Of a stretch of DNA of 64,000 nt, positions 1,575-64,000 are shown piece by piece (position 1 is the first letter of the stretch; every line of letters begins with the position of its first letter). The stretch is taken from positions 49,414,001-49,478,000 of the forward strand of contig OX597825.1 of NCBI GenBank assembly GCA_951406725.2, read 5' to 3'. The position numbers and the translations under genes were made by a program. This DNA is from Octopus vulgaris (taxonomy: Eukaryota). The notes beneath the pieces are model-generated. The model did no database searches and was not told the DNA's origin. It saw only the letters and a program-made list of their open reading frames with translations.

Positions 1575-2180
1575 CGAGAACTTTGGAAATCTATGCGACA
1601 CAATGAAGACATTCTTTACAAACTTTACAAGACAAGAGCAACAAAAAGAAGGACCACATGGGAAGAACCTAATGGGAAGAACCTAATGACTTCAACATTA
1701 CAAATAAAGAACCAAGTCCTTCCCCAATGGAGAAAACTACAGCGAAACAGAAAATTCGCATTTTGGAAAATGATACAAAATAAGAATAAAGCAGAGATTT
1801 ACCAAAAGTAAATCAACCTAATCATACCCCGCAAATTACAAATAAAACCCATCCTGGAAGAAGCAGAGAACAAAGAAGACTTAGAGAAAAAATGTCATTA
1901 AAAAAAAGGAAGATGGAAATTGAACTACTTAAACTGAGAACTAAGACGAATGAAGAAAACGTAAAAGCCATAGATGAAGAAATCAACGAAGAAGTCAACA
2001 AACTAACAGACGGTATCAATACTGAAACATTACTTACATTATGGAAAGAAGAATGTGAAAAAGAGGAACTAAAGTCCTTCCAACGATGGGAAAAGAGCGC
2101 CAACTGGTTCTTGGATTATGAAACCAACTTCAAACATGAACACATATCCAACAACCCCTTCATAAAATTAAGTAAAACAA
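1575..2180 (+). mobile_element. Decayed retroelement ORF fragment (K/E-rich, coiled-coil-like), probably Penelope-associated
   Basis: Broken reading frames (FAFWKMIQNKNKAEIYQK...; MEIELLKLRTKTNEENVKAIDEEINEE...) start right after a (TA)/(TG) microsatellite and run into a GIY-YIG fragment. Confidence 0.4.
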
Positions 2181-2850
2181 AACCATCTCCCATTTTCCCT
2201 CATCTATCACAACCTCCACCTTACCCCGCCAACGAACCATTCTCCGCGCCTTCCGACTCCTCCACCTCCCACTTCTTCCATAACGCCTCCTTCAAATGCC
2301 CCCATAACCTACGTGACCTTCTGGACTGCAATGTCTGTATATTAGCATGTGTACTATTAGCACCCAGCATGGCCTCTTCGCCTTCTCTCGCCCATGATAC
2401 CGCACATGCCTCTACCTCTCCAGCGCCACTATCCTCACCGGCACCCATCACTGCCCCATATCACATCACCGACACTTTTAGCTGCACCGCCAACAATGTT
2501 ATCTACTGCATCTCTTGCTGTTTTCGTCCTTCCATGTACATGGGACGCCGCTCTCGGAATGCTCAGGAGTCCACAGACAACAAAGCCCGAAAACAATTGA
2601 GTCAAGATGTAGAAATAAGTGGTTAGAAAATGTTGCTCCCATTTTTTTCCTTTCCCACAAATTACATGAAAAGTTAAAAGAAAAATATTTCATGAAAATG
2701 TTCAAACCTGTTCTGAACGGCAATAAAACCAATACTATAACAACCAGCTAACGATAAGGATTAAACATATCTTTGAAATAATATAATCAAACTACAGAAG
2801 TTTCCCATTAATTGCAATAAAAGCGATCGAAACCAACTATGTTCACTCAT
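2180..2850 (+). mobile_element. Penelope-like element relic, GIY-YIG endonuclease region
   Basis: HITDTFSCTANNVIYCISCCFRPSMYMG matches the Penelope-like motif FxCxxxNVIYxIxC...YIG; the C-rich flank is typical of these elements. Confidence 0.7.
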
Positions 2851-5299: not shown

Positions 5300-5710
5300 T
5301 GCAGTATTTATAACAGGTTTAATTTCTATGCATTAATTTGTACTGTCTTCATTAACGGCAATAGGTTTTTTCCTCGGTTTTTTCCTCGGATTTTATAATT
5401 TTTATAAGTTTTTTATATATATATACATATATTTTTGACCTTTTTGTTTATCGCTCGAAGATTGACCGTTTTTTCTAAAGGGCCAATCAAACAAGTCCAT
5501 TTCTTTTTAAAGGTGTAGCGTTTGTAAGAGTATAGATTGAATTAATATATATGTTCCATTCTAGCAAAAACTGTCTGATGAACGGCAACGAGAAACTCAG
5601 AGTAACAGATTTTGTTGAATTTTCTGCTGCTTAAAATAAAGCATATTACTCTACCACTGGTATTTGAGTACTCTTTTTTCCACCTTGTTTCACATTTATG
5701 TGTTTACTCC

Positions 5711-5713
<3 letters not shown>
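5300..5713 (+). mobile_element. Penelope-like terminal-repeat (pLTR) relic
   Basis: AT-rich segment ending in (TA)n, containing a hammerhead motif followed by AATAAA. Confidence 0.5.
5571..5608 (+). ncRNA. Minimal type I hammerhead ribozyme, slightly degenerate
   Basis: ctgt-CTGATGA-acg(GCAA)cga-GAAA-ctc-a-gag-TA-acag: stem I CTGT/ACAG, intact core, GNRA-capped 2-bp stem II, palindromic stem III, UA cleavage site. Confidence 0.7.
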
Positions 5714-5751
<38 letters not shown>

Positions 5752-5753
<2 letters not shown>

Positions 5754-6069
5754 TTTTACTTGTTTCAGTCATTTGACTGCGGCCATACTAGAACACCGCC
5801 TTTAGTCGAGGAAATCGACGCCCAGGACTTATTCTTCGTAAACCTAGTACTTATTCTCTCGGTCTCTTTTGCCGAACCGCTAAGTTACGGGGACATAAAC
5901 ACACCAACATCGGTTGTCAAGCGATGTTGGGGGGACAAACATAGACACACAAACACACAGATATATATATATATATACGACGGGCTTCTTTCAGTTTCCT
6001 TCTACCAAATACACTCAGAAGGCTTTGGTCGGCCCGAGGTTATAATAGAAGACACTTGCCCAAGGTGCG
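5752..6069 (-). mobile_element. SINE family A (octopus-type tRNA SINE with internal TA/CA tract), head truncated
   Basis: Highly similar to the full copies at 19844-20239 and 40431-40934. Confidence 0.85.
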
Positions 6070-6115
6070 AAACAGGCAGGAGAGAAGGGAGACAAGAGAG
6101 AAGGTGCGGGAGAGA

Positions 6116-7389: not shown

Positions 7390-9950
7390 GAGCGATAAAA
7401 AAAGAATCCTACAAGGAAGCTGAATGGGTAGGGAGAGAAAAAGAAAGAAAGACTGATATTGAAGAACAAAAATGGAACGATATAGCAATGCAGAAACTAA
7501 CTGATTCGCTATCTAAAACTCATAAGTGGAACCTCCTGGACATGATAAAATCCCAAACTTCTGGCTTAATATCCTCTCATATTCGCACAGTAAATTAATG
7601 GAATGCTTTTCTAATATCATTAGAAACCCCGAAAAGACTCCAAGCTGGCTATAGTTAGGGATAACCTGAGCGACACAAGAAATCACAAATCTGCAAGGCG
7701 ATCACATGTTTGACCACCATGTACAAAACACACATGTCCATCCTCACTGAAAGGATGTACCAATTTCTCGATGAAGACAATATTCTTGCTCTTGAACAAA
7801 AAGGGTGCAAAAGGAACTCATGCAGCTGCAAAGGTCAGCAATTAAAAAATACCTATTTCTTTACTGCCCACAAGGGGCTAAACACAGAGAGGACAAACAA
7901 GGGCAAACAAACGGATTAAGACGATTATATCGACCCCAGTGCGTAACTGGTACTTATTTAATCGACCCCGAAAGGATGAAAGGCAAAGTCGACCTCGGCG
8001 GAATTTGAACTCAGAACGTTGCGACAGACGAAATACCGCAAAGCATTTCGCCGGGCGTGATAACGTTTCTGCCAGCTCGCAGCCTTAAAATTAAAAATAC
8101 CGTATGATACACGAAAATTGCTCATCGAAAACCGTAATCTCAGTACAGCATGGATTGACTATCGTAAAGCATTTGAAATTTTTCTTCATAGCCAGATCTT
8201 AAATGCATTAATTATATACAAGATCGTTCTCTCTGGTAAAAGGAAAAGGACAGGTGAACTCAAAATTGTTTCTCAATCACGAGAAATTCTCGTATTTATC
8301 AGAGAACATCAAAATAGACCGTAGAATAGTCCAGGGTGATTTAATTTCCCCTCTCCTGTTCTGTCTTTCTCTCATTCCCTTGTCATATGAGCTTAATATA
8401 ACAAATCATGCTTACAAAATGTTTGACAAGATCGTCTCACACTTGCTCTACACGAATGATCTGAAATTATATGCAGAAGTTGACAAGGGTCTGAAAAGGA
8501 TACTAATAACTGAAACAATTCAGCGATGATATAAATATGGAATTCGGACTTGATAAATGTGCAAAAGCGTTGTTCAAACGTGATAAACTGGCAGCAAATG
8601 CAACAACCTAACTTGATGATGATATATGTATCACGGGTCTGGATCAAAAGTATCTTGGGAAACTTTCACTGAACTATATTGAATATTTTTCCAAAGACGT
8701 GTCAGAATGGCCCTGAATACTGGGCTGAACTCCCAGAGTAGACGTGTAGCTATGAAATCCATGGTTGTACCAATTGTCTATGATAGCCTTAATGTCATCA
8801 ATTAGAATCTGAATGAACTCCAGCGGATCAATATAGAGACCAGGAAACTGCTGACACTAAACAGGATGCACCACCAAAACCCAAACGTCCACAGACTCTA
8901 GCTTCCGGGAAAGGAAGGTTGTACAGGCCTAATCATACTTGGAACGTCCTATAGAACGACCACAAAAGGACTTTAGTGTACGTCAAAAGTAACACCGATT
9001 GGATGATACAGCTGGTAATGCAACATGAACATAGTAAAAAATTTCATTCAATCTCAAAGAAGGTATATAAATACACACGAGAGCTTAACCTCCCTGATTA
9101 TGATGAGGATAAGGAGGACCCGTCAGCCACTAAGGCGGTAAGAAGCGTAAAACAAAAGCCAAACAGGAAATCTTGAAGATAGTATCGAGACTGTGGCAAA
9201 AAAAAACCCCTTTGCATGGCGAAGCTGATGTAGCGACTGAGTGTTGGTTTGAAAACCAAAACAGAAGAGTCTTCTCATTCGGAACTATCAAGCTAATGCC
9301 ATGCAAAATGGGGTAGACACAAAGTGTACACATTGCAGCGACAAACTGGAGGGTATTGACAACATTGTTACCAGTTCTTCAGTCCTTGCACCAACAGAAT
9401 GTAAAACCAGGCATGATAAAGTTGGCCAATACTTGCAGTGGAGTGTGTACCGTTACTATGATATCACGCACTCTAAGAACTACTATGAACACCATCCAAA
9501 GACAGTAAACGAGAGAACGAATATTACTATCATATGGGATTATGGGATGCATAAGGACAAGCAAATAAATGTTAACAGACAAGACATCGCCATCATAAAT
9601 CTAAAGCATAAAACATGCATGTTAATTGATATGACAGTGCCTACTGAGAGAAATATCTCAGTAAATGTATTTGAAAAATTCTCGAAATATGAGAAGCATT
9701 TGAGATATCTAGGACATGGCAATTAAAAGCCAAAATCATCTCTATTGTTGTAGGCGCCCTGGGAATGATCAAGAAAGGTACTGGAAAATGTTTTGAGCAG
9801 ATTCTTGGGAAACTAACAATCTATGAGACTCAAATAATTTTGTTGACATCAACAGCCCACATTCTCATGAAGTTTCTAATACATAGGTGCCTTAGGTCTC
9901 TGTTTAAGACCCGGTCGGAAGATGAAATAAAATGTAAATCAATTGGAAAA
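7390..9950 (+). mobile_element. R4/Dong-clade non-LTR retrotransposon, 5'-truncated and degenerate
   Basis: RT motifs (EQKGCKR, AWIDYRKAFE, QGDLISPLLFCLSLIPLS, HLLYTNDLKLY), then CTHC...RHDKV and the RLE block IWDY...NRQDI...LIDMTVP...EKFSKY; ends in (TAA)n at 9951-10003. Confidence 0.9.
7854..8085 (-). mobile_element. SINE family B inserted into the Dong LINE, with target-site duplication
   Basis: Minus strand has A-box TGGCAGAAACG, B-box GAGTTCAAATTCC and core GTCGACTTTGCCTTTCATCCTTTCGGGGTCGA. Flanked by AATTAAAAAATACC (7840-7853) and AATTAAAAATACC (8089-8101). Confidence 0.9.
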
Positions 9951-13772: not shown

Positions 13773-16700
13773 TGCCTTTGCACAGTTTCTAACGGTGTCA
13801 GCTCTTCGCCTCTAACTTTTCGAGCGCCTTCCGGAGTATTCGAGCGGTTCCAAACAGTGCCGTTTTCTGCAAGTGCTCCATCCCTATTGTAGCCCCTAAT
13901 TGTTCCAAGTGCTTCTCAAGCTGTTTACTCACTGTTCCCAGGACTCCGACAATTATTGGTACTACTACCACCTTTTTTATCGACCACAACTGCTTAACCT
14001 CCCAAGCTGACCTGTCATATCTATCAAATTTTCTATCTTCCTTATCGCATGCATTATTATCAGCTGGGCATGCTATATCTATGATCTAGTATATTCTTTC
14101 TGAATTAAGACTATGTCTAGCTTCCTATTCTGTATCTAATAAAATCCCACAGGATCTTTGCATTAATATTTTCGATGGTGACTTTGGGTTTGTGGCTCTA
14201 TCAATTGTTTTTCTGTGTGAAATCCATACTTGTTGCACAGTGTCCAATAGACAGGCCTGGCTATATTGTCGTAACGTCTCTTATATTCCTTCTGGTTTCA
14301 CCATTTTTTTCCACAAATTCTGCACTGAACACTTTCTGATGTGCTGTCTATTCTGTATTTTATGTAGTTTTTCCTTGGTGCTTGCTCTTGGGCAGCACAA
14401 ATTACACCCACCATTCCGGTTTAAAATCAATTTTAATAATCCACAGCCATCTTTTTCTCTGTCTGTCTTATCTTCAATATCCCTATGGAATTGTCCATGC
14501 ATTCTTTTCTTTAGGCACCTATTTTCAGTTTAATTCGTTTTCAATTGCTTGTACAGTGCTTTATCTTTGCAATCTTTCATCCAACACATACCTGACCTTC
14601 TTACTTCTAATAATAGCGGTCTGTGGAACAGTTTACATACATACTCTGTTGTTTTCTTCTGCTCTAATGCTGTGTTCTCATACAATAAATCCACTTCCCT
14701 CTCTTTGTCACATTTTGAGTGGAGTGACTCATATCTAAATAGCAACTTCTTTGTCTTTCTTTCTAAGCTGCTTCATTCGTCTACTGTCCATGCGATTACC
14801 CCTGCTGCATATGTAAAGAGTGAAACCGCCCAGGTGTTGATAACTTCAATCTCATTTCGTCTCTCAACTTCAACTTAAGGATCAATCTCAGTCTGCGCAA
14901 GCACTCCACCTTAAATTTTTCTGTCATTTCTTTCTCCGTGAATTCATCCATTTCCAAAATCACCACGTACTTACAGCTCGTGCCTTCTATCTGCTTCATA
15001 ACCTTCCCTCTCCGACGGTATCGTTAGCCCGTTCATACATTTGATTATGCCTCTCTTCAAGACTAACACACAACACTTTCTCAGTCCGAACTCCATTCTG
15101 ATATCAGCACTGAAAGTATACACCGTATCAAGGAGGGAACTTTATCATAAAGATTGAAGGCATCAATGAATAACAAATGGTTGACTTTTTATTGGTAGCT
15201 TTTGAATACATACCCAGCTTTTCCTTTCCTCAGAATCTGTGTTAGTGGTCAGTACAAAGATAAGTGGTGACAGGCAGTGGGGACATGCCCCTCTTGATTT
15301 CTACTACCGCTTAACTTCTTCCGTATGTCGTCAGGTCCATACTTCTAAGCAATCGCTCATCACTCGATGCAATAGCAAGAATGTGGGATTATATCGTACG
15401 TCTTACGATAGTCGATCCATGGCATGGCTAAGTTACTTTTCTTCCTCTTGCAGTCTTTAAGTAAAATTTTATCTACTAGTTGTTGATCCTTGGTACCTCT
15501 GCACTTACGATTGCAACGCTTCTGCTCGTATGGCAGGACTATATTTTTGTTCAGATGTTCGTACTTTGACTCTGCGACTATTCCAGTCAATAATCTGCAC
15601 GTAAGTGGCAAGCAGGATATCGGACTGTAATTGTCTACTGTATTGTCTTTTCCGATGTTTTTCAAGCATAGTAATGTCCTACACAATGTCAACCACTCTG
15701 GTGTTACTTGGTCGGCATTTAACAAGGTGTTGAGTTGCGCAGCTATTCGTGTATGACATTCACTAGATATTTTGATCCAGTAGCCTTGAGCTCCATCTTG
15801 TCCCGAGGCCTTCTAGTTGCTCACTCTTTGATGAAAACCTTCATTTCCCTAACTGAAACGACTGGTTCTGCCAGTTTTGGACGGACTGCTGTTTGTTTCA
15901 GTTCTTGCAAACTTCAGCATCCTTCTTGTGCTCTTTGTTTTTGCTCCAGATGTCACTCCAAAACCTCTGACTTTCATTGTTATCTGGTATCAACTTTTCA
16001 AATGAACACTTTCCATCTATTTCTTTATAGAATCTTTTCTAAACTAACCTGAATATACTATACTGCTGGTAACCCTTCATTCTTTGGTCATATGTTTCCA
16101 TCTTGCTTTCTTTGCAACGAGGCGTTGTTTCAGTTCCTCCATTACCACATTCATGCCCTTTCTTTCAATGTTATACTTCCTTTTCAGCGACCTGTATTTT
16201 CGTTCGCTTTTAAGCTCCCATTTTTCTTTTCGGTCTAACACAGAAATGTCCTTCGAGAACATTCTAACCTTGCCTGTATTCTTCCTTCCCACCATGAATA
16301 TTTCCTTTTGCCACTCCCATTATATTTCTTTTTCATGACATCAACACCCACGTTTTCTGCTAAAGCAATACTTGTTGCCTTAATCAAATTATTTGTTTCT
16401 GTGGTGTTGTTTGTTATGATGTATTTCAGAATTCCATTGAGATTTTTCGTATCTTGGTTCAATTTCCACCGATCAACATTTTTAAGGTTGCAAATAATGT
16501 CACTATAGTTCTCTTGTAGTCTTGCCTCTATTCTGTCGTAGATTGCCTTTTGTTCATGAAATTAAATTTATTAGTAAGATCTGTATTATCATCGTTATCT
16601 TTGCTGCTATTTTCCAATACCAGTCTTTTGATAGCTTCAAACTCTACTTCTGTGAACCAACGATTTTTTTCTTGTTGCTCAAGCTTGATCAAATAGTTTA

Positions 16701-19639: not shown

Positions 19640-19783
19640 TATTCCCTCTGTTTATTTTCTCTTATTCCTTTCTGTTGAAGAACGTAGGCTCGAACCGGAA
19701 AAGAATTTCTCACTTTCCCGAGCGTCAAACTAATACACCTGCTTCTTATTGATACACCTGTCTTCGTTTTTTGTTTTTCTGTA

Positions 19784-19790
<7 letters not shown>
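19640..19790 (+). mobile_element. Penelope-like terminal fragment with a degenerate hammerhead
   Basis: cttt-CTGTTGA-a-gaac(gtag)gctc-GAAC-cg-ga-aaag at 19668-19703, lying between microsatellites. Confidence 0.45.
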
Positions 19791-19843
<53 letters not shown>

Positions 19844-19845
<2 letters not shown>

Positions 19846-20237
19846 TCTTTTACCCTTTTACTCTTTTTACCTGTTTCAGTCATTTGACTGCGGCCATGCT
19901 GGAGCACCGCCTTTTAATCGAGCAATTCGACCCCAGGACTTATTCTTTTGCAAGCCCAGTACTTTGCCGAACCGCTAAGTAACGGGGACATAGACACACC
20001 AGCATTGGTTGTCAAGCAATGCTAGGGGGACAAACACAGACACACAAACACACACATATATATATATACATATATACGACAGGCTTCTTTCAGTTTCCGT
20101 CTACCAAATCCACTCACAAGGCATTGGTCGGCCCGGGACTATAGCAGAAGACACTTGCCCAAGATGCCACGCAGTGGGACTGAATCCGGAACCATGTGGT
20201 TGGTTAGCAAGCTACTTACCACACAGCCACTCCTGCG

Positions 20238-22099: not shown

Positions 22100-22778
22100 C
22101 AGTTCTGAATACCAACCATATCACTGGCCTTCAGGTAACATGACATTTGAAACGGTCGCTCTTTCTCTATTTCTATCTTTGATGTGTAGATAAAAGAAAA
22201 CCTGAAGTGGGGAATTAATAGATGTAATTGACGACGGAGTTAATAGATGTTAGGGCTTTGACATAAGACTATCTAAAGGGCCTTCCTTTTTACTGCAGCA
22301 CGAGTACTTTTGCTGGATTTGGAAGATTGAATCTTATTATTGTTCAGACCAGCAAAAAGCTAAAGAACAAATGAGGGAAGTAAAGAAAAGGAAACATAGT
22401 AGGAGGGAGAGTCAGCTAATAATATTATATCAAATTTTATTGGATTATTTAAAAAATATATATATAACTTGCCCACCCCAATTTATTTTCTTCAATTTCC
22501 TTATTCCACCGCTTCCGCGGTCTTCTTTTTCTTCTTTATAAGTTGTTTTCTTCTTGAAGTTTTCCTTTTGCTACCGATATAACTAGGATGGATAGATATA
22601 TATATTTATTATATCATAGTTACCAGTCAACGCAGAGTTTTATCCTTAGCTAGCTGTTCTAACCAGCCGAACTAAAGGTGAAACTTAGTGCAAACTCGAT
22701 ACTGATACAATAGATACCTACATACTTATGTAGGTATCTATGTATATGTATACATACATAAACATTATATATATTCTT

Positions 22779-22975
22779 TTATACTTTTACATGTTTCAGT
22801 CACTTGACGGCGGCCATGCTAGGGCACCGCCTTTAGCCGAGCAAATTTACTTATTCTTTAGAAGCTTCGTACTTATTCTATCAGTCAATTTTGCCGAACC
22901 GCTAAGTCACGGGGGACGTAAACACACCAGTAACGGTTGTCAAGCGATGTTTAGGAGACAAACACAGACACACAA
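22779..22975 (-). mobile_element. SINE family A, 3' half
   Basis: TGTTTCAGTCA..GCGGCCATGCT...GCCGAACCGCTAAG...GGTTGTCAAGCGATG blocks. Confidence 0.8.
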
Positions 22976-23024
22976 ACATATACACACACACATACACACA
23001 CACATATATCTATGTATATCTATG

Positions 23025-23090
<66 letters not shown>

Positions 23091-23169
23091 TATATAATAA
23101 ATTTAGGATGAATACTTGATAAGTGTAAGCACCTGTATACGCCAGCTAGTAGCAGAGGTGAGAGGGTAA

Positions 23170-23606
23170 ATGTATCAAATGAAATCAAAAACAGAACACA
23201 AAGTATGTCGCGGTACACGTGTTTCAAGCTTTATAAACGATCTATTCTTACATCATTGTATAATCGACACAAAGGATGGTTTAAAGCTCTCTTCAGCCGC
23301 ATGCAATTGCTATACCAAAGATTTACATCACATTATGAAAAATCCGAAAGGTACATTTGGTATTACCCATAATGGTAGGTATATCGAGTCTCGCTGAGAA
23401 AGTATGTTTGTAATACCAAATATACCTTTCGGATTTTTCATAATGTGATGTAAATCTTTGGTATAGCAATTGCATGCGGCTGAAGTGAGCTTTAAACCAT
23501 CCTTTATGTCGATTATACAATGATGTAAGAATAGATCGTTTTTAAAGCTTGAAAAACGTGTACCGCGACATCCTTTGTGTTCTGTTTTTGATTTCATTTG
23601 ATACAT
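23170..23606. repeat. Long inverted repeat (foldback/MITE-like): 197-bp arms, 43-bp spacer
   Basis: 23170-23366 is the reverse complement of 23410-23606; I counted six substitutions and no indels by eye. Confidence 0.95.
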
Positions 23607-23618
23607 ATATATGTATCA

Positions 23619-23748
<130 letters not shown>

Positions 23749-24744
23749 TATATACATATATGAATATGTATTGTAAGATAAAGAAATTGAAATAAAAAGG
23801 AAAAGAAATGGAAATAAAGGAAAAGAGAACTTTGATGGATTCAGAGAATATATAGGTGTGGAGCTCATTCAGTAGACAGAATATTATGTCACTGGGTATT
23901 CGTTACCTAACTGGGTAAATGGTTGAAAGAGATATCTTTGGATTTAAACAGTTTGCTGTCATCCGAGAACGAGTATGATTTGGAAACATGTATCATAGGC
24001 AACTATCCAGTGTACTGGAGAAATAGATATCCTCACATATTTTCGATTTTTCAGCCTGCATTACATCAATTATAAGATCTCTCCAGCAGAGGGGTTGCAC
24101 TAGTACTTATTTTTAGCTATTTAAACTTGGCACACCTTGACATGAAGGTACCTACTCAAGGACACAAAGCAAGCCTCGTCCAGGAACTGAACTCTCGGCA
24201 ATATGATCCCAGGCTTAATATGCTAACCACTAAGATACTTGAATTCACTTGAAATTGCAAGTTGATAAATAAAAGGAACAAAATATATAAAAATAGATAC
24301 TGATATATCTCTGCGCAGAGAGATTTTCGTGTCAGTAAAGAAATGTGTAAGTGTATTTAGATTTGTGTTGTAGAGTTAGCAATACCAACGTTTAAGATTT
24401 AAGAAAAATGTATAGTTCAAAAAATAGTTTCCAACATTTCCTTCGTTTTGAAGTTTTTACTGAACGTATTCTGAAAGTTTCACGTCAAAATAGTCACAGA
24501 GAAACTTAGATGTCATCACTTATTTTTAGATATTTTTGTTTTGAGTAATTTTATTATTGCTCTCTGACACATATTTTACATATTTATTGCTGAGATTGTT
24601 TACACTTCTCAATCAGAACAGATTCACAGAATATTTTACAAGATAAAAAATATTCTGTTTAGTAAGTCCATGTCTAATAAAAACCTAAGTTGGGTCTTGA
24701 GGTGTATAAACATAATTGAATTTGGGTTGTATGGCTCAACTGAT

Positions 24745-29772: not shown

Positions 29773-30308
29773 GCAGTGGCTCTCATGGCTTCTGATCTTA
29801 ACTGATTGGATGTGTTATCATGTACATTGTTTTGTCTTGATATAAAAGATGGGCTACAGCAAACATTCTGCTCAATACCACAGATTTGCTTGTCAGTTGT
29901 TTGACCCTAAACAGTTGAGCATGTCCCTTGGTGGCTGACGATATGTGCATCTATGATCACGAGCAGAAGTAGTGCGGGAGCATCATAGCCATGTGTTGAG
30001 AGGGATTCTTTGGGGTTTGAATAATTCACCTCTGGAAACATGGGTGTTTCGTTCAACATCCTTAAACAACCCTTATTCAGGGCCCTTTCGAGTGGGATGG
30101 GTTACTCAACCTGAAGAAAATTCTAACTCGGCCCCACCTGTTAGGTCATGTGCTGTTTATCTTCATATGAGATCACCATGTCGCGCACATATGGTTGTGA
30201 TGCATGTGCCTAGTGTACACTTATCAGACGGGTAGTCATGATGGGTATACTGGGCTTCGTATATTTTACCCCAGTGTCACTTTGATGGCATGCACTGCTC
30301 TCTCACTC
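29773..30308 (+). mobile_element. ~550-bp TAA-associated element, copy B (about 20 bp shorter at its 5' end)
   Basis: Flanked by (TAA)n on both sides; ends GCATGCACTGCTCTCTCACTC-AATAAT. Confidence 0.85.
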
Positions 30309-31787: not shown

Positions 31788-31788
<1 letters not shown>

Positions 31789-32320
31789 GTGAGAGAGCAG
31801 TGCATGCCATCAAAGTGGCACTGGGGTAAAATATGCGATGCCCAGTATACCCATCATGTCTACCCGTCTGATAAGGGTACACTAGGCGCATGCACCACAA
31901 CCATATATGCGCGACATGGTGATCTCATATCAAGATAAACAGCACATGACCTTACGGGTGGGGCCCAGTTAGAATTTTTTTCCCGCTCAAAAGGTCCCTG
32001 AATATGGGTTGTTTAAGGATGTTGAACGAACCATCCATGTTTCCAAAGGTGAATTATTCAAACATCCCCAAAGAATCCCTCTCAACACATGGTTATGATG
32101 CTCCCGCACCTCGTTATGAGAGGTGTACATATCGTCAGCCACAAAGAGGCATGCTCAACTGTTTATGTTCAAACAACTGACAAGCAAATCTGTTGTATTG
32201 AGCAGAATGTTTGCTGTAGCCCATCTTTTATACCAAGACAAAACAATGTACATGATGACACTTCCAATCAGTTAAGATCAGCAGCCATGGGAGCCACTGC
32301 CTGGTTCTGCATCAGGGCAT
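31788..32320 (-). mobile_element. ~550-bp TAA-associated element, copy C (inverted)
   Basis: Reverse complement of copy B, flanked on both sides by (TTA)n (31714-31786, 32321-32463). Confidence 0.85.
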
Positions 32321-37633: not shown

Positions 37634-37697
37634 ATATTAATAGTTATCGCCATACTAATATGGCAGTCCATATTAGTATGGCGAAAACTATTAATAT
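37634..37697. repeat. Near-perfect 64-nt hairpin (30-bp arms, 4-nt loop)
   Basis: ATATTAATAGTTATCGCCATACTAATATGG-cagt-CCATATTAGTATGGCGAAAACTATTAATAT; one mismatch. Confidence 0.95.
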
Positions 37698-40573: not shown

Positions 40574-40934
40574 ATGTGTGTATCATGTTGAGTCGAGCAA
40601 CTCGACCCCGGGACTTATTGTTTGTAAGCCCAGTACTTATTCTATCGGTCTCTGTTGCCGAACCGCTAAGTGACGGGGACGTAAACACACCAGCATCGGC
40701 TGTCAAGCAATGCTAGGAGTACAAACACAGACACACAAACACATACACATACATACATATACATATATATACGAGATGCTTCTTTCAGTTTCCGTCTACC
40801 AAATCCACTCACAAGGCATTGGTCGGCGCGGGGCTATAGCAGAAGACACTTGCCCAAGATGCCACGCAGTGGGACTGAACCCGGAACCATGTGGTTACTT
40901 AGCAAGCTACTTACCACTCAGCCACTCCTGCGCC
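40431..40934 (-). mobile_element. SINE family A, full length
   Basis: Near-identical to 19844-20239, with an extra microsatellite in the tail. Confidence 0.9.
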
Positions 40935-42351: not shown

Positions 42352-42594
42352 CTTTACTTATTTATTTGTCTCAGTGACTACGGCCATGCAAGAGCAGCAC
42401 CTTTAGTGGTAGAAATCGATCCCAGGACTCATTCTTTGTAAGCCTAGTACTTATACTATCGACTTATTTTAGCGAACCGCTAAATTACGGGGACGTAAAG
42501 ACACCAGCATCGGTTGTCAAATGATGGTGGAGGGAGAAACACAGACACTCAAAAACACACACGCACACACATATATGTATGTATGTGCATATGA

Positions 42595-42627
<33 letters not shown>

Positions 42628-42666
42628 TATATATACATATATATATATACATATATACACACACAC

Positions 42667-42730
<64 letters not shown>

Positions 42731-42899
42731 TATACACGATGGACTTCATTCAGTTTCCGTCCATCAAACCCACTCACAAGGATTTGGTTGGCCCGAGGTT
42801 ATAGTAGAAGACAGTTGCACAAGGGGCCACGCAGTGTGGCTAAGCCCAGAACCATTTGGTTGGGAAGCAGGTTACTTACCGCACAGCCACGACTGCGCC
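42352..42899 (-). mobile_element. SINE family A with an expanded internal microsatellite
   Basis: Both family A halves flank a ~190-bp TA/CA tract. Confidence 0.85.
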
Positions 42900-44814: not shown

Positions 44815-44873
<59 letters not shown>

Positions 44874-45208
44874 CACACACGTGTGTGTGTATGTGCATAT
44901 ATGCATTTATATAGGGGCAGAGAAAATATATAATAAAGCTACGTGTTTTCAAACGTATTGCAATAATATTATAGACATTACGTAGAACACAGAGTTATGT
45001 GAAAATAAAAAAAGAAAACATCGTCTAATTTTTTTCCATTATAATTCCATATGGGTCATAATTCAATGTGGGTCATATTTCTAACAATATATTGGAATCT
45101 GCATGGTTGTTACTATTCAGGCACATACAAGAATTCAAACAAAAGAACCCCCCTTGAATATATATCAAAAGCGCACGCAAGCAAACATACAGACTGCGCG
45201 CGCGCACA

Positions 45209-48726: not shown

Positions 48727-49324
48727 CTTTTTTCTTGTTTCAGTCATTTGACTACTGCCATACTGGAGCACCACCTTTAATCGAACAAATCAACCCTAGG
48801 ACTTATTCTTTGCAAGACTAGTACTTATTCAATCGGTCACTAATACTGAACCGCTAAGTTACAGGGACGTAAACACACCAACATCGGTGGTGAAGTGATG
48901 GTGGGAGGACAAAGACACACGGACACAAATTCATATATGCACGTATACATACACAAATATGTATGTATATATGTGTGTATGTATGTATGTATGTATGTAT
49001 GCATGCATGCATGTATATATATATATGTGGAGGCGCAATGGCCAAGTGGTTAGGGCAGCGGACTCGCGGTCGTAGGATCGCAGTTTTGATTCCCAGACCG
49101 GGCGTTGTGAGTGTTTATTGAGCGAAAACACCTAAAAGCTCCACGAGGCTCCGGTAAGGAGGTGGTGATCCCTGCTGTACTCTTTCACCACTATTTCTCC
49201 CAATCTTTATTATGTTGGCCTGCTCGCTTAGCCAGCGGGGTGGCGTTATCCAAAGGCTAAAACAATGCGAACGCATTGTGACCAGCGATGTGTAACAACA
49301 TCTGATGGTCTGGTCGGTCACGGT

Positions 49325-49368
<44 letters not shown>

Positions 49369-49530
49369 GACGGGCTTCTTTCAGTTTCCATCTAACAAAT
49401 CCACTTACAAGGCTTTGGTCAGCCCCAGGTTATAGTAGAATACACTTGCCCAAGATGCAAGGCAGTGGGACTGAACTCGGAACCATGTGGTTGGGAAGCA
49501 AACGTCTTGGCACACAGTCACTCCTGCGCC
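48727..49530 (-). mobile_element. SINE family A hosting a nested SINE in its internal (TA)n
   Basis: 3' half at 48727-48930 and 5' half at 49365-49530. Confidence 0.85.
49029..49331 (+). mobile_element. SINE family C variant (same head and core as 37949-38334, different tail)
   Basis: GGAGGCGCAATGGCCAAGTGGTTAGGGCAGCGGACTCGCGG...GAGCGAAAACACCTAAAAGCTCCACGAGGCTCCGG...CCCTGCTGTACTCTTTCACCAC. Confidence 0.88.
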
Positions 49531-58468: not shown

Positions 58469-59214
58469 TTAGCTCCTCCATTCTCTCTTCCTTGACATAG
58501 CCTCCTCAAAATCAGCTCTCTGTTCTTCTTCCTGTCTGTCTTTCTTCTCCTTTATCACGCCTTCTTGCGTTTCCATTTCTATATTTTCCACTATTTCTGG
58601 GCACCTTCTTCTAATGTGACCTCCTTTGCCACATTTATAGCACTTTGGAGGTGTTCCTTCCAACACTATATCCAGCTTGTATTCGTTTGGCAGTTCCAGT
58701 GTCTCCGGTATGATATCATATACTCTCTGACTTGCTGTGAAAACCAGCTCGAAACCATACCCCCAATAATTTATTTGTTGGGTTCTGGTTATCATAACTA
58801 CCTCTACGTCTTCCTTTTTACCCATTCCGACTCTATTTTTGGCAGGATCCTACTCACCCTAATCCTCGTTGGACACCTACCCAGATGATTGGGAAAGAGC
58901 ATCCAATTTTCTCCAGTTAACGTCTTATTGGCGTATTTCCTTGCTGCCTCCTCCGATACAAATGTGATCTCTACAGACGCGTATGTCTTGCCTCTTGTGA
59001 AAAAGGACACATCTTTTAATTCCTTCAAATACTCTTCCACCTCCTCCTTTTTTGCGCTCTCTATTCTTTTATTTTTCCTTGAAAACGAGCTATATTCCTC
59101 CAACTTAATTTTCATTTTCGCCTTTTCCTCCTCTGATGGGGTGAACTTTACGTTTGGCCCCTCCTTCTGTAACATCTCTAGATATTTTCCAAATTTCTCA
59201 GCCATGTCCTTCAT
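58469..59214 (-). mobile_element. L1/Tx1-like ORF1 (gag-like, CCHC zinc knuckle), one frameshift
   Basis: Overlapping ORFs 58804-59214 and 58469-58825; RRM-like VEITFVSEEAA...TRIRVSRILP and zinc knuckle PPKCYKCGKGGHIRRRCP. Confidence 0.75.
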
Positions 59215-59442
59215 TCCAGCGCATTTCGTATTGCTTCTGCAGGCCTGGGACGACGGAAGCCCAACTCCCTGTCGCTGTCACATATGTCTTCATTTTCTCC
59301 ATCTCATTACATTGCATTGTAATTTTATTCATTTCACATTCATCTTTTCATGTGCTTTTTGTTCCTGCATGTCTGTGTATGTCCTTTCTGTGTTTAGGCC
59401 TTGTGTCAGTAATAAAGAGTTAACCTCTAACGGAACAATTAT

Positions 59443-61089: not shown

Positions 61090-61935
61090 GGCGCCATGTC
61101 AGATTTTGGGTGCTGCATCCTATATCCTGTCATTGTGTTTCCTGGTTTTCTGTCAATTTTGATTTGCCCTTTTAGCGTCCAGTTAAGAATATTGTAGCTG
61201 TAACTTATAAGTCGGGCAGCTACAGCGTTAATACCTATAATCTTGTTTTTCACATTGAGCTCTGTTTACAATATCTAACTAACTCGTTTGTAGTATTCCT
61301 TATTCTATCCTCTCTTTCATTTGTGTGTGTTGGATAGTATCTAGTTCATTGATTCCCTTTGTCTAATTCTATTATTTCATTTGTTTTTCTAGTTCGATGT
61401 TGTTACTCTTAAATAGTTTTCCTGTTTTCAAGGTTGCTTTGGCACGTTTTTCTAAGCCAAATTTCATATTTATCTTATTGGTAAATCTATGTACTGTCTG
61501 TAGAAATGTGTCCATCTGTTTATCATTCGTAGCGTACAGTTTTAGATCATCCATATACAAGAAGTGGTTGATTGTTTTGCCGTAACAGTGGTATCCACAT
61601 CCAGTTATGTGTAGCATGTCAGATAAAGGTGTCAGTGCCCTGCAGTAAATAAATGAAGAGAGTGTATTTTCCTGGAATATTCCTCTTCTTATGGGGGTGG
61701 CTTTGGTTTTCATGGGTTTTAGGATTGTTTGCCATTTATTCATGGCAAACAGTCTAATACAACTTATGATTATTGATGCTACCTTGTTCATGCTTGGCGT
61801 TTCTAGGCTCAATGCTGTGGAATAATCTTTTATCAAAACCTTTCGTTAATCAATTTAAGCCATACTTAGACCTTTCTTCTTTTTTCGGCTGTCTTCAGCT
61901 ATGTCTTTATTGGTCAGTAGTTGATCTTTTGCTCT
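61090..61935 (-). mobile_element. R4/Dong LINE RT fragment
   Basis: IRRGIFQENTLSSFIYC..LTPLS...INHFLYMDDLKLY...INMKFGLEKRAK. Confidence 0.9.
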
Positions 61936-61944
61936 TTTTATTAT

Positions 61945-64000
61945 CAGTATTCTTATGTAGTCTTATATTTATCACGTGCATTCATTGCATTACCTATCGC
62001 AGCTCTGTGTGTTTTGGATATGTACTGTTGTCTGTTGTGATGTTTTTATTTCTACTGAATTGAAAGTGTTATAGGTAGGATGTGTGTGGTCCCTAATTGC
62101 GATATCTTCTGTATGTTATATATACTTGTTAGTTCTGGTGTTTTGAAATGTGTTTTTCGAATATTCATTTTTTCATACTTTATGCACCTACTATGATAGG
62201 AATTCTTTTGTTTTTAGATTCCACATTCGAGTTATCTCTATTTCCAGGTCGTTGTATTTTGAAAGTTTCTCCATTTCTTTTAGAGACACGTTGTCATCTG
62301 TTGGTATTGATACATCGATTAGAAAGCATAATTTTCGTGATGACCTCTGACAACTTCATATCTGTGTATTGGCATACCCCATAATATGGTTGCTTTCTCA
62401 TTTTCTGTGACATTTTCTGGTGTATGCCTATACCATTTTTTCTGTTGTTATTCCAAAGTGTTGGCATAGCTTCCAGTATATATAACTTCCAACTCTTTCA
62501 TGTTTGTGACTATATACCTTCATAACCAGGACTGGGCAGTCAGAGACAATATGGTTTATTGGTTCTTGTCCACCTCCACATATTCTGCGGTTACCTTTGT
62601 TTCTTTTCATTATATAGTTTTGGTCATTTTTGGTGAGGTGGCTTTGGCATTGTGCTGCAATAAAAATTCTTCAGTCTCTATCAAGAGTTCTGAGCCCCTT
62701 AGCCATTGCTGGGATTTTGCTTTGCCTATTTGTTTTGCGTTTAGTTTAACCCAGTATTTGCCATGACGGGGCTTTTCTTGCCATCGTCTATCATGATCCG
62801 TTGCTGTTCCGGTTTTAGTTTCGATTCCAGTTGTTTTACAGATTTTCTTTTCTTCATAGCTGTTTGGTACCATGACTTCCTTTTTGTATTTATCAGCTTC
62901 CCTAATGACTGAAAACTGTTATCCTCTTACATCCTGTCATTCTTCTTGTTTTCCTATCTATTTTGATCAGTTTATTAATTTCCAGTTAAGGATATTGTAG
63001 CTGTAACTTATAAATGGGTCGGCTATTATCTTGTTTTTTGCATTTAACTCGGTTTTCATTATAATCTAACTCGCCTGTAGTATTATTTTTTAATTTTCTC
63101 TTTCATTTGTGTGTGTAGGATCGTATCTAGTTCATTGATGCCTAAGTATTTGTACGACTGGCCTAATGCTCTTATTTCGTTTGCTTTATCTAGTGTGAAT
63201 TTGCTACTCTTAAATAGTTTTCTCTTATCAAGGTTGCTTTGGCACATTTTTCTAAACCAAATTTCACGTCTATTTTTTTTGTAAATCCATGTACTGTCTG
63301 TAGCAATGTTTCCAGCTGTTTGTAGCGTACAAATTTAGATCATACATATATAAGATGTGCTTAATTGTTTTCTCGCAACAGTTATATCCACATCCAGTTC
63401 TATTTAGTATGTCAGATAACGGTGTCAGTACCAAACAGAAAATGAGTGTTGAGGGTGTGTCTCCCTAGAATATTCCTAATCTAATGGGGATGGCTTTGAT
63501 TTTTATGAGTCTCTCTTTTAACTGGAGCTGTAGCACTGTCTGCCGTTTATTCATGGAATGTTTTATGTATTTTATGATTATTGGTGTTACTTTCTTCATG
63601 GGTAGTGTTTCCAGGATCCATGTGCGGGAAACACTATCAAAAGCTTTTCGGTAAACGATGTAGGCCATACTTAGACGCTTCTTTCTGCGGCTGTCTTCAG
63701 TTATGGTTTTATTGCTCAATAGCTGATGTTTAAAGCCGTATGAGCTTTTGAAACATCCCTTCTGCTCTTCTGGAACCAGGTTGTTTTCTTCCAGATACTT
63801 TTTCTTTCTCTGCGACATAATAGCAGTACAAGTATTGTAAATTGTAGGGAGACAAGTTATCGGTCTGCAATTTTGTGGATTTGCTGTTTTAGTGGATTTG
63901 GGAATTAGGATAGTTTTCCTTTCTGTGAGTCATTCAGGCAGTCTCTGGATCAGATAGAGTTTCATGAAATTTCTCAGCCTGCTTTTTATGTGTTCCTGTA
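61945..64000 (-). mobile_element. R4/Dong LINE (RT to 3' UTR), runs off the window
   Basis: EEQKGCFKSSYGFKHQLL...YRKAFDSV...IRLGIF, HGKYW, NHIVSDCPVL...HERVG and the RLE domain; the 3' UTR matches 29671-29760. Confidence 0.9.

What the first reader, a model, noticed from the sequence alone, without database searches (positions are those of the whole stretch)
23170..23606. 437-bp foldback: 197-bp arms, ~97% complementary, 43-nt loop
Seen: six substitutions and no indels between the arms. The arm sequence resembles no SINE or LINE in the window, and the right end abuts (TA)/(TATC)n. Inference: a young MITE/foldback element or a template-switch inverted duplication. If transcribed, for example in an intron, it forms ~200 bp of dsRNA, a strong substrate for ADAR (A-to-I editing is extensive in coleoid cephalopods) or Dicer. 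It could also extrude a cruciform.
Basis: partly seen in the sequence, partly recalled or inferred. Interest (0 to 1): 0.7.

Follow-up and report, generated by a model that had tools for sequence, protein, structure and literature searches.

The report
Inverted Penelope-like retroelement with hammerhead ribozymes
This real 437-base DNA hairpin carries a hammerhead-ribozyme motif in each arm (one intact, one mutated) and is likely the truncated, back-to-back footprint of a Penelope-like retrotransposon, a known insertion pattern rather than a new kind of element.

Summary
The foldback is real: arms 23170-23366 and 23410-23606, 6 substitutions in 197 bp, no indels, 43-nt spacer. The left copy (minus strand, 23300-23210) has an intact core, an 8-bp helix II and an 8-nt palindromic helix III; 5 of 500,000 shuffles of the arm match as well. 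The right copy has two core mutations. (TA)n lies beyond both outer ends, on the left after an extra 73 nt. Hammerheads near the 3' end, an inverted 5'-truncated second copy, a one-sided tail and (TA)n targets are the published hallmarks of Penelope-like elements (PLEs). So this is most likely two truncated PLE 3' ends joined head to head, not a MITE. The parent element could not be retrieved, so family membership is likely, not proven; a Ginger2-like MITE remains a minor rival. Any read-through transcript would form about 200 bp of dsRNA and bury the ribozyme, but transcription is untested. The one unusual detail is a 48-nt insert in ribozyme helix II. Known kind, new member; modest interest.

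The parts
23170..23366 (-). Left arm: 5'-truncated copy of the element's 3' end, sense on the minus strand
   Evidence: orientation from the hammerhead motif
23210..23300 (-). Intact type I hammerhead motif: helix I 23300-23297 with 23213-23210; core CUGAAGA 23296-23290; helix II 8 bp (23289-23282 with 23233-23226) enclosing 48 nt; GAAA 23225-23222; palindromic helix III 23222-23215; predicted cut after A17 at 23214
   Evidence: 5 of 500,000 arm shuffles match the strict descriptor; no Rfam hit
23367..23409 (.). 43-nt spacer; likely the extra 5' sequence of whichever copy is less truncated (owner not resolved)
   Evidence: junction-folding test did not separate the two orientations
23410..23606 (+). 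Right arm: inverted 5'-truncated copy, sense on the plus strand, ending 44 nt after the predicted ribozyme cut site
23476..23566 (+). Mutated hammerhead motif: A9 to U at 23486 and C15.2 to A at 23555; predicted inactive
   Evidence: palindrome duplex -3.9 against -10.3 kcal/mol for the left copy
23097..23169 (-). 73-nt extension on the left copy only; likely the PLE 'tail' (alternative: host DNA)
   Evidence: sequence; unique in window; only 3 of 43 gaps between TA tracts are 30-100 nt; its own fold is not significant
23004..23096 (.). Left (TA)n tract, the inner microsatellite of a SINE-like repeat; inferred target
23607..23761 (.). Right TA/(TATC)n/(TA)n tract; inferred target
22784..22978 (+). 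5' half of a SINE-like dispersed repeat whose microsatellite received the insertion; its 3' half is missing here
   Evidence: BLAST within window, about 10 related stretches at 71-86% identity

Best explanation
The hairpin consists of two outward-facing copies of one hammerhead-bearing sequence between (TA)n tracts, and is likely a single 5'-truncated insertion of a Penelope-like retroelement. Shown: arms, spacer, ribozyme motifs and their orientation, flanking microsatellites, no coding region. Inferred mechanism: the element's RT/GIY-YIG protein nicked both strands of a (TA)n tract. Each nick primed reverse transcription of the element RNA, one from the full 3' end (giving the 73-nt tail) and one from a start site 73 nt further in. 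Both cDNAs stopped after about 200-310 nt and were joined head to head. I put this twin priming at about 55% against snap-back of a single cDNA at about 45%. The copies have since diverged by 3%, which hit the right ribozyme twice. Predicted behaviour today: inert DNA. If host transcription crosses the locus in either direction, the antisense arm is made before the sense ribozyme, so the RNA would fold into about 197 bp of dsRNA, the ribozyme would not form, and the duplex would be an ADAR or Dicer substrate.
For: The only hammerhead match in 128 kb (both strands) falls inside the arm; 100 window shuffles gave a mean of 0.02 (loose) and 0 (strict). Arm shuffles: 16 of 50,000 loose, 5 of 500,000 strict. 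Layout fits PLE ribozymes in Cervera 2014: short helix I, 7-8 bp helix II, palindromic helix III, and dual motifs 100-700 bp apart on opposite strands (PMC4209133); G10.1-U11.1 also occurs in Lottia motifs. Craig 2021 describes an inverted 5'-truncated copy at the 5' end, a tail often on one end only, and (TA)n targets hiding the TSD (PMC8557442). Its supplement lists Penelope-13_HM with ribozymes on both strands and an attached inverted copy, and an Octopus Hydra-clade PLE targeting (TA)n. Cut-site-to-end distances here are 44 and 117 nt, against 47 and 97 nt counted by eye in two published Hydra elements. Two further ribozyme-like 3' ends in the window also run into (TA)n after 108 and 89 nt. 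A PLE protein nicks and extends both strands and starts at two RNA sites that bracket the tail (PMC11167929). Ribozyme helices have probability 0.00 in the read-through fold.
Against: No parent element or second copy was obtained; there is no RT or GIY-YIG frame at the locus. Rfam gives no hammerhead hit, even on 156 nt at E up to 10; it also misses the degenerate motif at 5575, so this is weak. The 48-nt helix II insert is longer than any loop 2 in the tables I saw (at most 35 nt; at most 9 nt). Predicted helix I pairing is about 0.01 for the monomer, and helix II drops to about 0.03 in the whole left copy. The tail is 73 nt against the 30-40 nt described, and its fold is not significant (18% of 1000 shuffles). 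Ends 23171/23605 read TGT..ACA with a one-mismatch 4-bp repeat, which partly fits Ginger2. The sequence does not match the Octopus Hydra-1 ribozyme.
Confidence: 0.85

Rival explanations
1. A non-autonomous Ginger2-like DNA transposon (MITE) spanning 23171-23605, with 196-bp terminal inverted repeats, cut and pasted into a GTATAT site with a TATA duplication that later mutated on the left.
For: Termini TGT..ACA; flanks TAAA and TATA, 1 mismatch in 4. Ginger2 has 50-180 bp TIRs, 4-bp TSDs and prefers RTATAY (PMC2836005 passages).
Against: The terminus is TGTAT, not TGTNR. The right-hand TATA comes free with the microsatellite. It leaves a ribozyme motif of about 1 in 100,000 chance unexplained. 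No other exact copy of the terminal 11-mer in 64 kb.
Confidence: 0.06
2. A single PLE fragment inserted first; a later host event (replication template switch or snap-back repair at the microsatellite edge) copied it in inverted orientation. The 73 nt on the left would be host DNA.
For: The arms match up to the right-hand target junction and 3 nt beyond with one mismatch. Six short perfect hairpins occur in the window, most in microsatellite-rich DNA.
Against: Inverted 5'-truncated copies are a routine product of PLE transposition itself, so no extra event is needed. A host origin of the 73 nt needs two TA tracts 30-100 nt apart, seen in 3 of 43 gaps.
Confidence: 0.06
3. Assembly or library artefact (fold-back chimera).
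For: The locus is bounded by microsatellites, and complex PLE insertions are hard to assemble.
Against: The arms differ at 6 positions with no indels; a chimera of one molecule would give identical arms or indel-type errors (general knowledge). The window has no N.
Confidence: 0.02
4. A selected hairpin-RNA or microRNA gene.
For: Very stable fold; Rfam microRNA models score it, best MIR4208 at 77 bits.
Against: All those scores are far below gathering thresholds (77 against 140) and reflect generic hairpin shape. The substitutions are unpaired mismatches with no compensatory change.
Confidence: 0.02

Closest known systems
Inverted 5'-truncated PLE insertions, e.g. Penelope-13_HM of the Hydra clade (Craig et al. 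2021, PMC8557442)
   Same: [quoted passage not shown]
   Different: Here both copies are truncated to non-coding sequence; helix II holds 48 nt; the putative tail is 73 nt; the sequence differs from the Octopus Hydra-1 ribozyme.
Opposite-strand paired minimal hammerheads of Schistosoma Cercyon PLEs (Cervera and de la Pena 2014, PMC4209133)
   Same: Two motifs a few hundred bp apart on opposite strands; short helix I, 8-bp helix II, palindromic helix III predicted to need a dimer.
   Different: No extra unpaired nucleotide after A9 in the simplest pairing, a longer helix III palindrome and a long helix II insert.
Anolis Poseidon element PAc (Frangieh et al. 2024, PMC11167929)
   Same: AT-rich target, both strands primed, two reverse-transcription start sites that define a tail: the model for this locus.
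   Different: In PAc the reading frame starts within the ribozyme and the tail is 30-40 nt; no such frame is seen here.
Animal non-LTR retrozymes (PMC7229834; bioRxiv 10.64898/2026.07.22.740005)
   Same: Short non-coding elements with a type I hammerhead, related to PLE terminal repeats.
   Different: Retrozymes are direct tandem repeats; this pair is inverted, so no RNA carries two sense ribozymes.
Ginger2 non-autonomous DNA transposons (PMC2836005)
   Same: TGT..ACA ends, long inverted repeats, AT-rich target.
   Different: Fifth base breaks TGTNR, the 4-bp duplication is imperfect, and a ribozyme in the arms is unexplained.

Membership tests
Penelope-like element (truncated copy) | Type I hammerhead motif near the 3' end / in the pseudo-LTR | tested here: met
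   Descriptor match on the left copy, 5 of 500,000 shuffles; not recovered by Rfam
Penelope-like element (truncated copy) | Inverted 5'-truncated copy adjoining the 5' end | tested here: met
   Both motifs point outwards, 5' ends meet at the spacer
Penelope-like element (truncated copy) | Tail extension on one end only (30-40 bp described) | tested here: inconclusive
   73 nt on the left only; cannot be shown to belong to the element
Penelope-like element (truncated copy) | Insertion into (TA)n with no discernible TSD | tested here: met
   TA tracts at 23004-23096 and from 23607
Penelope-like element (truncated copy) | Derives from a parent with telomerase-like RT plus GIY-YIG endonuclease | not testable with these tools
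   No coding sequence left at the locus, as expected after 5' truncation; no eukaryotic DNA collection was available to fetch the parent
Penelope-like element (truncated copy) | Dispersed multi-copy family | not testable with these tools
   One locus in 64 kb; 0 matches in bacterial and archaeal genomes
Hydra clade of PLEs | (TA)n target and ribozyme with 4-bp helix III | tested here: inconclusive
   Fits by eye, but similar helices occur in Aedes elements
Hydra clade of PLEs | Protein motifs RWK, DKT, CxCX5C, no CCHH | not testable with these tools
   No protein at the locus; features from PMC8557442 section 11
Hydra-1_Obim (published Octopus family) | Same ribozyme and flanking sequence | tested here: not met
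   Different helices and flanks; 6 of 8 short probes had no match in the supplement and 2 matched once in unrelated GC-rich sequence (line breaks can hide matches)
Ginger2 MITE | TGTNR termini | tested here: not met
   Terminus reads TGTAT
Ginger2 MITE | 4-bp TSD in an RTATAY site | tested here: inconclusive
   TAAA against TATA, 1 mismatch, inside a microsatellite edge
Non-LTR retrozyme | Direct tandem monomers each with a type I hammerhead | tested here: not met
   Copies are inverted; no tandem array at the locus beyond microsatellites
Active hammerhead ribozyme | Self-cleavage at the predicted site | not testable with these tools
   Core intact in the left copy only; monomer fold unfavourable

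The most novel reading that the evidence does not exclude
An unrecorded (TA)n-targeting PLE family carries a hammerhead with a 48-nt domain in helix II, and this locus is a genomic record of twin priming from two start sites 73 nt apart. Such head-to-head insertions would silence their own ribozymes and supply a large share of the near-perfect dsRNA behind the very high RNA editing reported in octopus.
Probability: 0.2. Interest if true: 0.6.

Novelty: new member of a known kind. Interest (0 to 1): 0.3.

Why it matters
It reassigns an apparent MITE to a retroelement: repeat finders that call any long terminal inverted repeat a MITE would mislabel such loci. If the tail reading holds, the locus shows in one place the two start sites and two-strand priming so far demonstrated in vitro for one lizard element. 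PLE foldbacks as dsRNA sources have precedent: Penelope is the massively edited LINE-class repeat in lizard (PMC5625713) and inverted Penelope regions give siRNAs in Drosophila (PMC3681739). So the functional idea is credible but not new. The long helix II insert is the only feature outside what I saw in print.

Tried and rejected
Rfam: no hammerhead family hit at the locus or at the 5575 motif; microRNA hits are below threshold and rejected as generic hairpins. BLAST within the window: no second copy of arm, spacer or tail; a 74% hit to 19762-19844 disappeared after microsatellite masking. Exact 23-nt scan of bacterial and archaeal genomes: 0. An 86-codon open frame across tail and left arm (23112-23369) found no homologue by word search; the exhaustive search gave 2 weak hits (E 3e-4, 7e-4) to SEA-repeat proteins, rejected as chance inflated by repeats. 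Pfam on 285 complexity-filtered open frames of 55 aa or more: 2 of 285 pass a curated cut-off (a zinc knuckle and an RT fragment), no host exon; short exons would be missed. The 278-aa frame at 1790-2626 gave no homologue for residues 30-125. Spacer ownership by junction folding: 41, 120, 129 and 74 of 2000 shuffles across the four arrangements, not decisive. Tail fold not significant. The 20-bp palindrome at 23599-23618 is one of six such hairpins in the window and was not used. No editing signature in the six substitutions: 2 transitions, 4 transversions. The sigma-70 scan is not relevant to a eukaryote and gave fewer sites than shuffles. Literature searches for an octopus description of this family and for a template-switch model found none; the library lacks most subscription papers, Repbase and Dfam were not available, and supplementary file 1 of PMC4209133 could not be searched.

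Full report
Observation. The foldback is as described: arms 23170-23366 and 23410-23606, six mismatched pairs, no indel, 43-nt spacer (extends it by 3 nt through one mismatch). It folds at -317 kcal/mol as RNA, z = -43, and -217 kcal/mol as DNA. It is the only long, near-perfect, short-spaced inverted repeat in the masked window, and neither arm nor spacer recurs in 64 kb. The window is a repeat-rich eukaryotic sequence of about 35% GC with 114 tandem-repeat rows.

What the arms contain. On the minus strand the left arm reads GCGG, CUGAAGA, an 8-bp stem enclosing 48 nt, GAAA, a palindrome ACACGUGU ending in U16.1, A17, then CCGC. This is a complete type I hammerhead layout. It is the only match on either strand of the window; 100 dinucleotide shuffles of the window gave a mean of 0.02 with a loose descriptor and 0 with a strict one. 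Shuffling only the arm gave 16 of 50,000 (loose) and 5 of 500,000 (helix I at least 4, II at least 6, III at least 2 pairs). The descriptors were written after I saw the motif, but they follow the published one and are looser than the observed match. The right arm carries the same motif on the plus strand with two of the six substitutions in it: A9 to U (23486) and C15.2 to A (23555). The palindrome duplex falls from -10.3 to -3.9 kcal/mol. Rfam did not detect either motif, nor a more compact degenerate one at 5575.

Anatomy. The motifs point outwards, so the two 5' ends meet at the spacer. The right copy ends 44 nt after the predicted cut site, directly at TA repeats. The left copy has 73 further nt before its (TA)n tract, 117 nt after the cut site. 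The left tract is the inner microsatellite of a SINE-like repeat (22784-22978); another copy of that repeat, at 48929-49368, also has a different sequence lodged in its microsatellite. No perfect direct repeat of 4 bp or more flanks any symmetric pair of ends; the best are one-mismatch 4-mers and 2-bp TA or AT matches. No frame at the locus matches Pfam.

Comparison with print. Cervera and de la Pena 2014 (PMC4209133; parts 1-2 of 4 of the text; one part of supplement file 2) report hammerheads in the terminal repeats of PLEs, with short helix I, 7-8 bp helix II and a palindromic helix III that implies dimer activity. They also note pairs of motifs 100-700 bp apart on opposite strands. Craig et al. 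2021 (PMC8557442; abstract, passages and section 11; supplement parts 2 and 52 of 59 and term searches) describe an inverted 5'-truncated copy at the 5' end, a 30-40 bp tail often on one end only, and (TA)n targets that hide TSDs. Their tables list Penelope-13_HM with motifs on both strands and an Octopus Hydra-clade family that targets (TA)n; that family's ribozyme is not this one. Frangieh et al. 2024 (PMC11167929; parts 1-2 of 4) show that a PLE protein nicks and extends both strands of AT-rich DNA, starts at two RNA sites that bracket the tail, and that its ribozyme needs the protein. Two more ribozyme-like 3' ends in this window run into (TA)n after 108 nt (5571-5712) and 89 nt (about 19660-19788), so this type of element is locally common.

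Mechanism. Shown: arms, orientation, motifs, flanks, lack of coding sequence. Inferred: one PLE insertion event into (TA)n, with both strands primed, one cDNA from the full 3' end and one from the inner start site, both aborted and joined head to head. Snap-back of a single cDNA gives the same product and cannot be excluded. The spacer is the extra 5' sequence of one copy; a folding test did not say which. The tail reading is about two-to-one in my judgement: a host origin needs two TA tracts 30-100 nt apart, seen in 3 of 43 gaps, but the tail is longer than described and its fold is ordinary. Three percent divergence without indels argues for a real, moderately young insertion and against a chimera; no rate was available to date it.

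Function today. Because the copies are head to head, a transcript crossing the locus in either direction makes the antisense arm first. In the minus-strand read-through fold all ribozyme helices have probability 0.00. The helix III palindrome needs a second sense copy that an inverted partner cannot give (inference from PMC4209133). So cleavage here is unlikely, and dsRNA is the likely product if there is transcription. There is precedent: Penelope is the heavily edited LINE-class repeat in lizard and octopus has an exceptional density of potential dsRNA (PMC5625713 passages); inverted Penelope regions yield siRNAs in Drosophila (PMC3681739 passages). Whether this locus is transcribed is unknown: 2 of 285 open frames pass a Pfam cut-off, both retroelement-like, and no host exon was found. 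A 43-nt spacer makes cruciform extrusion less likely than for a perfect palindrome (general knowledge, untested).

Rivals. A Ginger2-like MITE fits the TGT..ACA ends and a near 4-bp TATA duplication, but fails TGTNR (PMC2836005 passages) and leaves the ribozyme unexplained. A later host duplication of a single PLE fragment is possible but needs an extra event. Non-LTR retrozymes are direct tandems (PMC7229834 passages; bioRxiv 10.64898/2026.07.22.740005 part 1 of 5), which this is not. The giant squid genome paper reports 235 hammerhead matches and warns that microRNA models match inverted repeats (PMC6962438 passages), in line with rejecting the Rfam microRNA hits.

Verdict. A known kind of structure, probably from an unlisted family; membership is likely but the parent could not be fetched. 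The 48-nt helix II insert is longer than any loop 2 in the two tables I saw and is the one detail worth a bench test. Searches for a description of this family found none, within a library that lacks most subscription papers and the repeat databases. Interest 0.3.

Noticed in passing
window 5571-5712 (+): A second hammerhead-like motif with a 4-bp helix III and a degenerate helix II, followed after 108 nt by (TA)n; its layout closely resembles the published Hydra-2_Amil 3' end. Likely another truncated PLE.
   Followed up: partly
window about 19660-19788 (+): A third, more decayed hammerhead-like motif followed after 89 nt by (TA)n at 19789; judged by eye only.
   Followed up: partly
window 5753-6110, 19865-20167, 22784-22978, 40588-40862, 42361-42827, 48729-49458 and others: A SINE-like repeat in two halves around an inner (CA)n/(TA)n tract; five copies keep both halves. 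Copies start right after the (TA)n ends of both other ribozyme-bearing elements, and the tract at 48929-49368 holds a nested insertion.
   Followed up: partly
window 37647-37684, 22710-22741, 44869-44894, 23599-23618: Short perfect hairpins with arms of 10-17 bp; the one at 37647 is non-repetitive and lies within a 64-bp imperfect palindrome.
   Followed up: no
window 29773-30307 and 31788-32300: A 538-bp inverted pair, 88% identical and about 1.5 kb apart; another potential dsRNA source.
   Followed up: no
window 61372-63929 (-), 15360-15812 (-), 9253-9726 (+): Broken LINE-type fragments: reverse-transcriptase matches for the first two; the third looks like a LINE C-terminal region by eye only.
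   Followed up: partly
window 58469-59277 (-): Two overlapping frames with a CCHC zinc knuckle, gag- or ORF1-like.
   Followed up: partly
window 1790-2626 (+): A 278-codon open frame with a charged, helical-looking first half; no Pfam match and no homologue for residues 30-125 among proteins of similar length.
   Followed up: partly
window 23112-23369 and 23170-23394 (+): Two of three antisense frames stay open across the whole left arm (86 and 75 codons); the first has no credible homologue, the second was scanned in Pfam only.
   Followed up: partly
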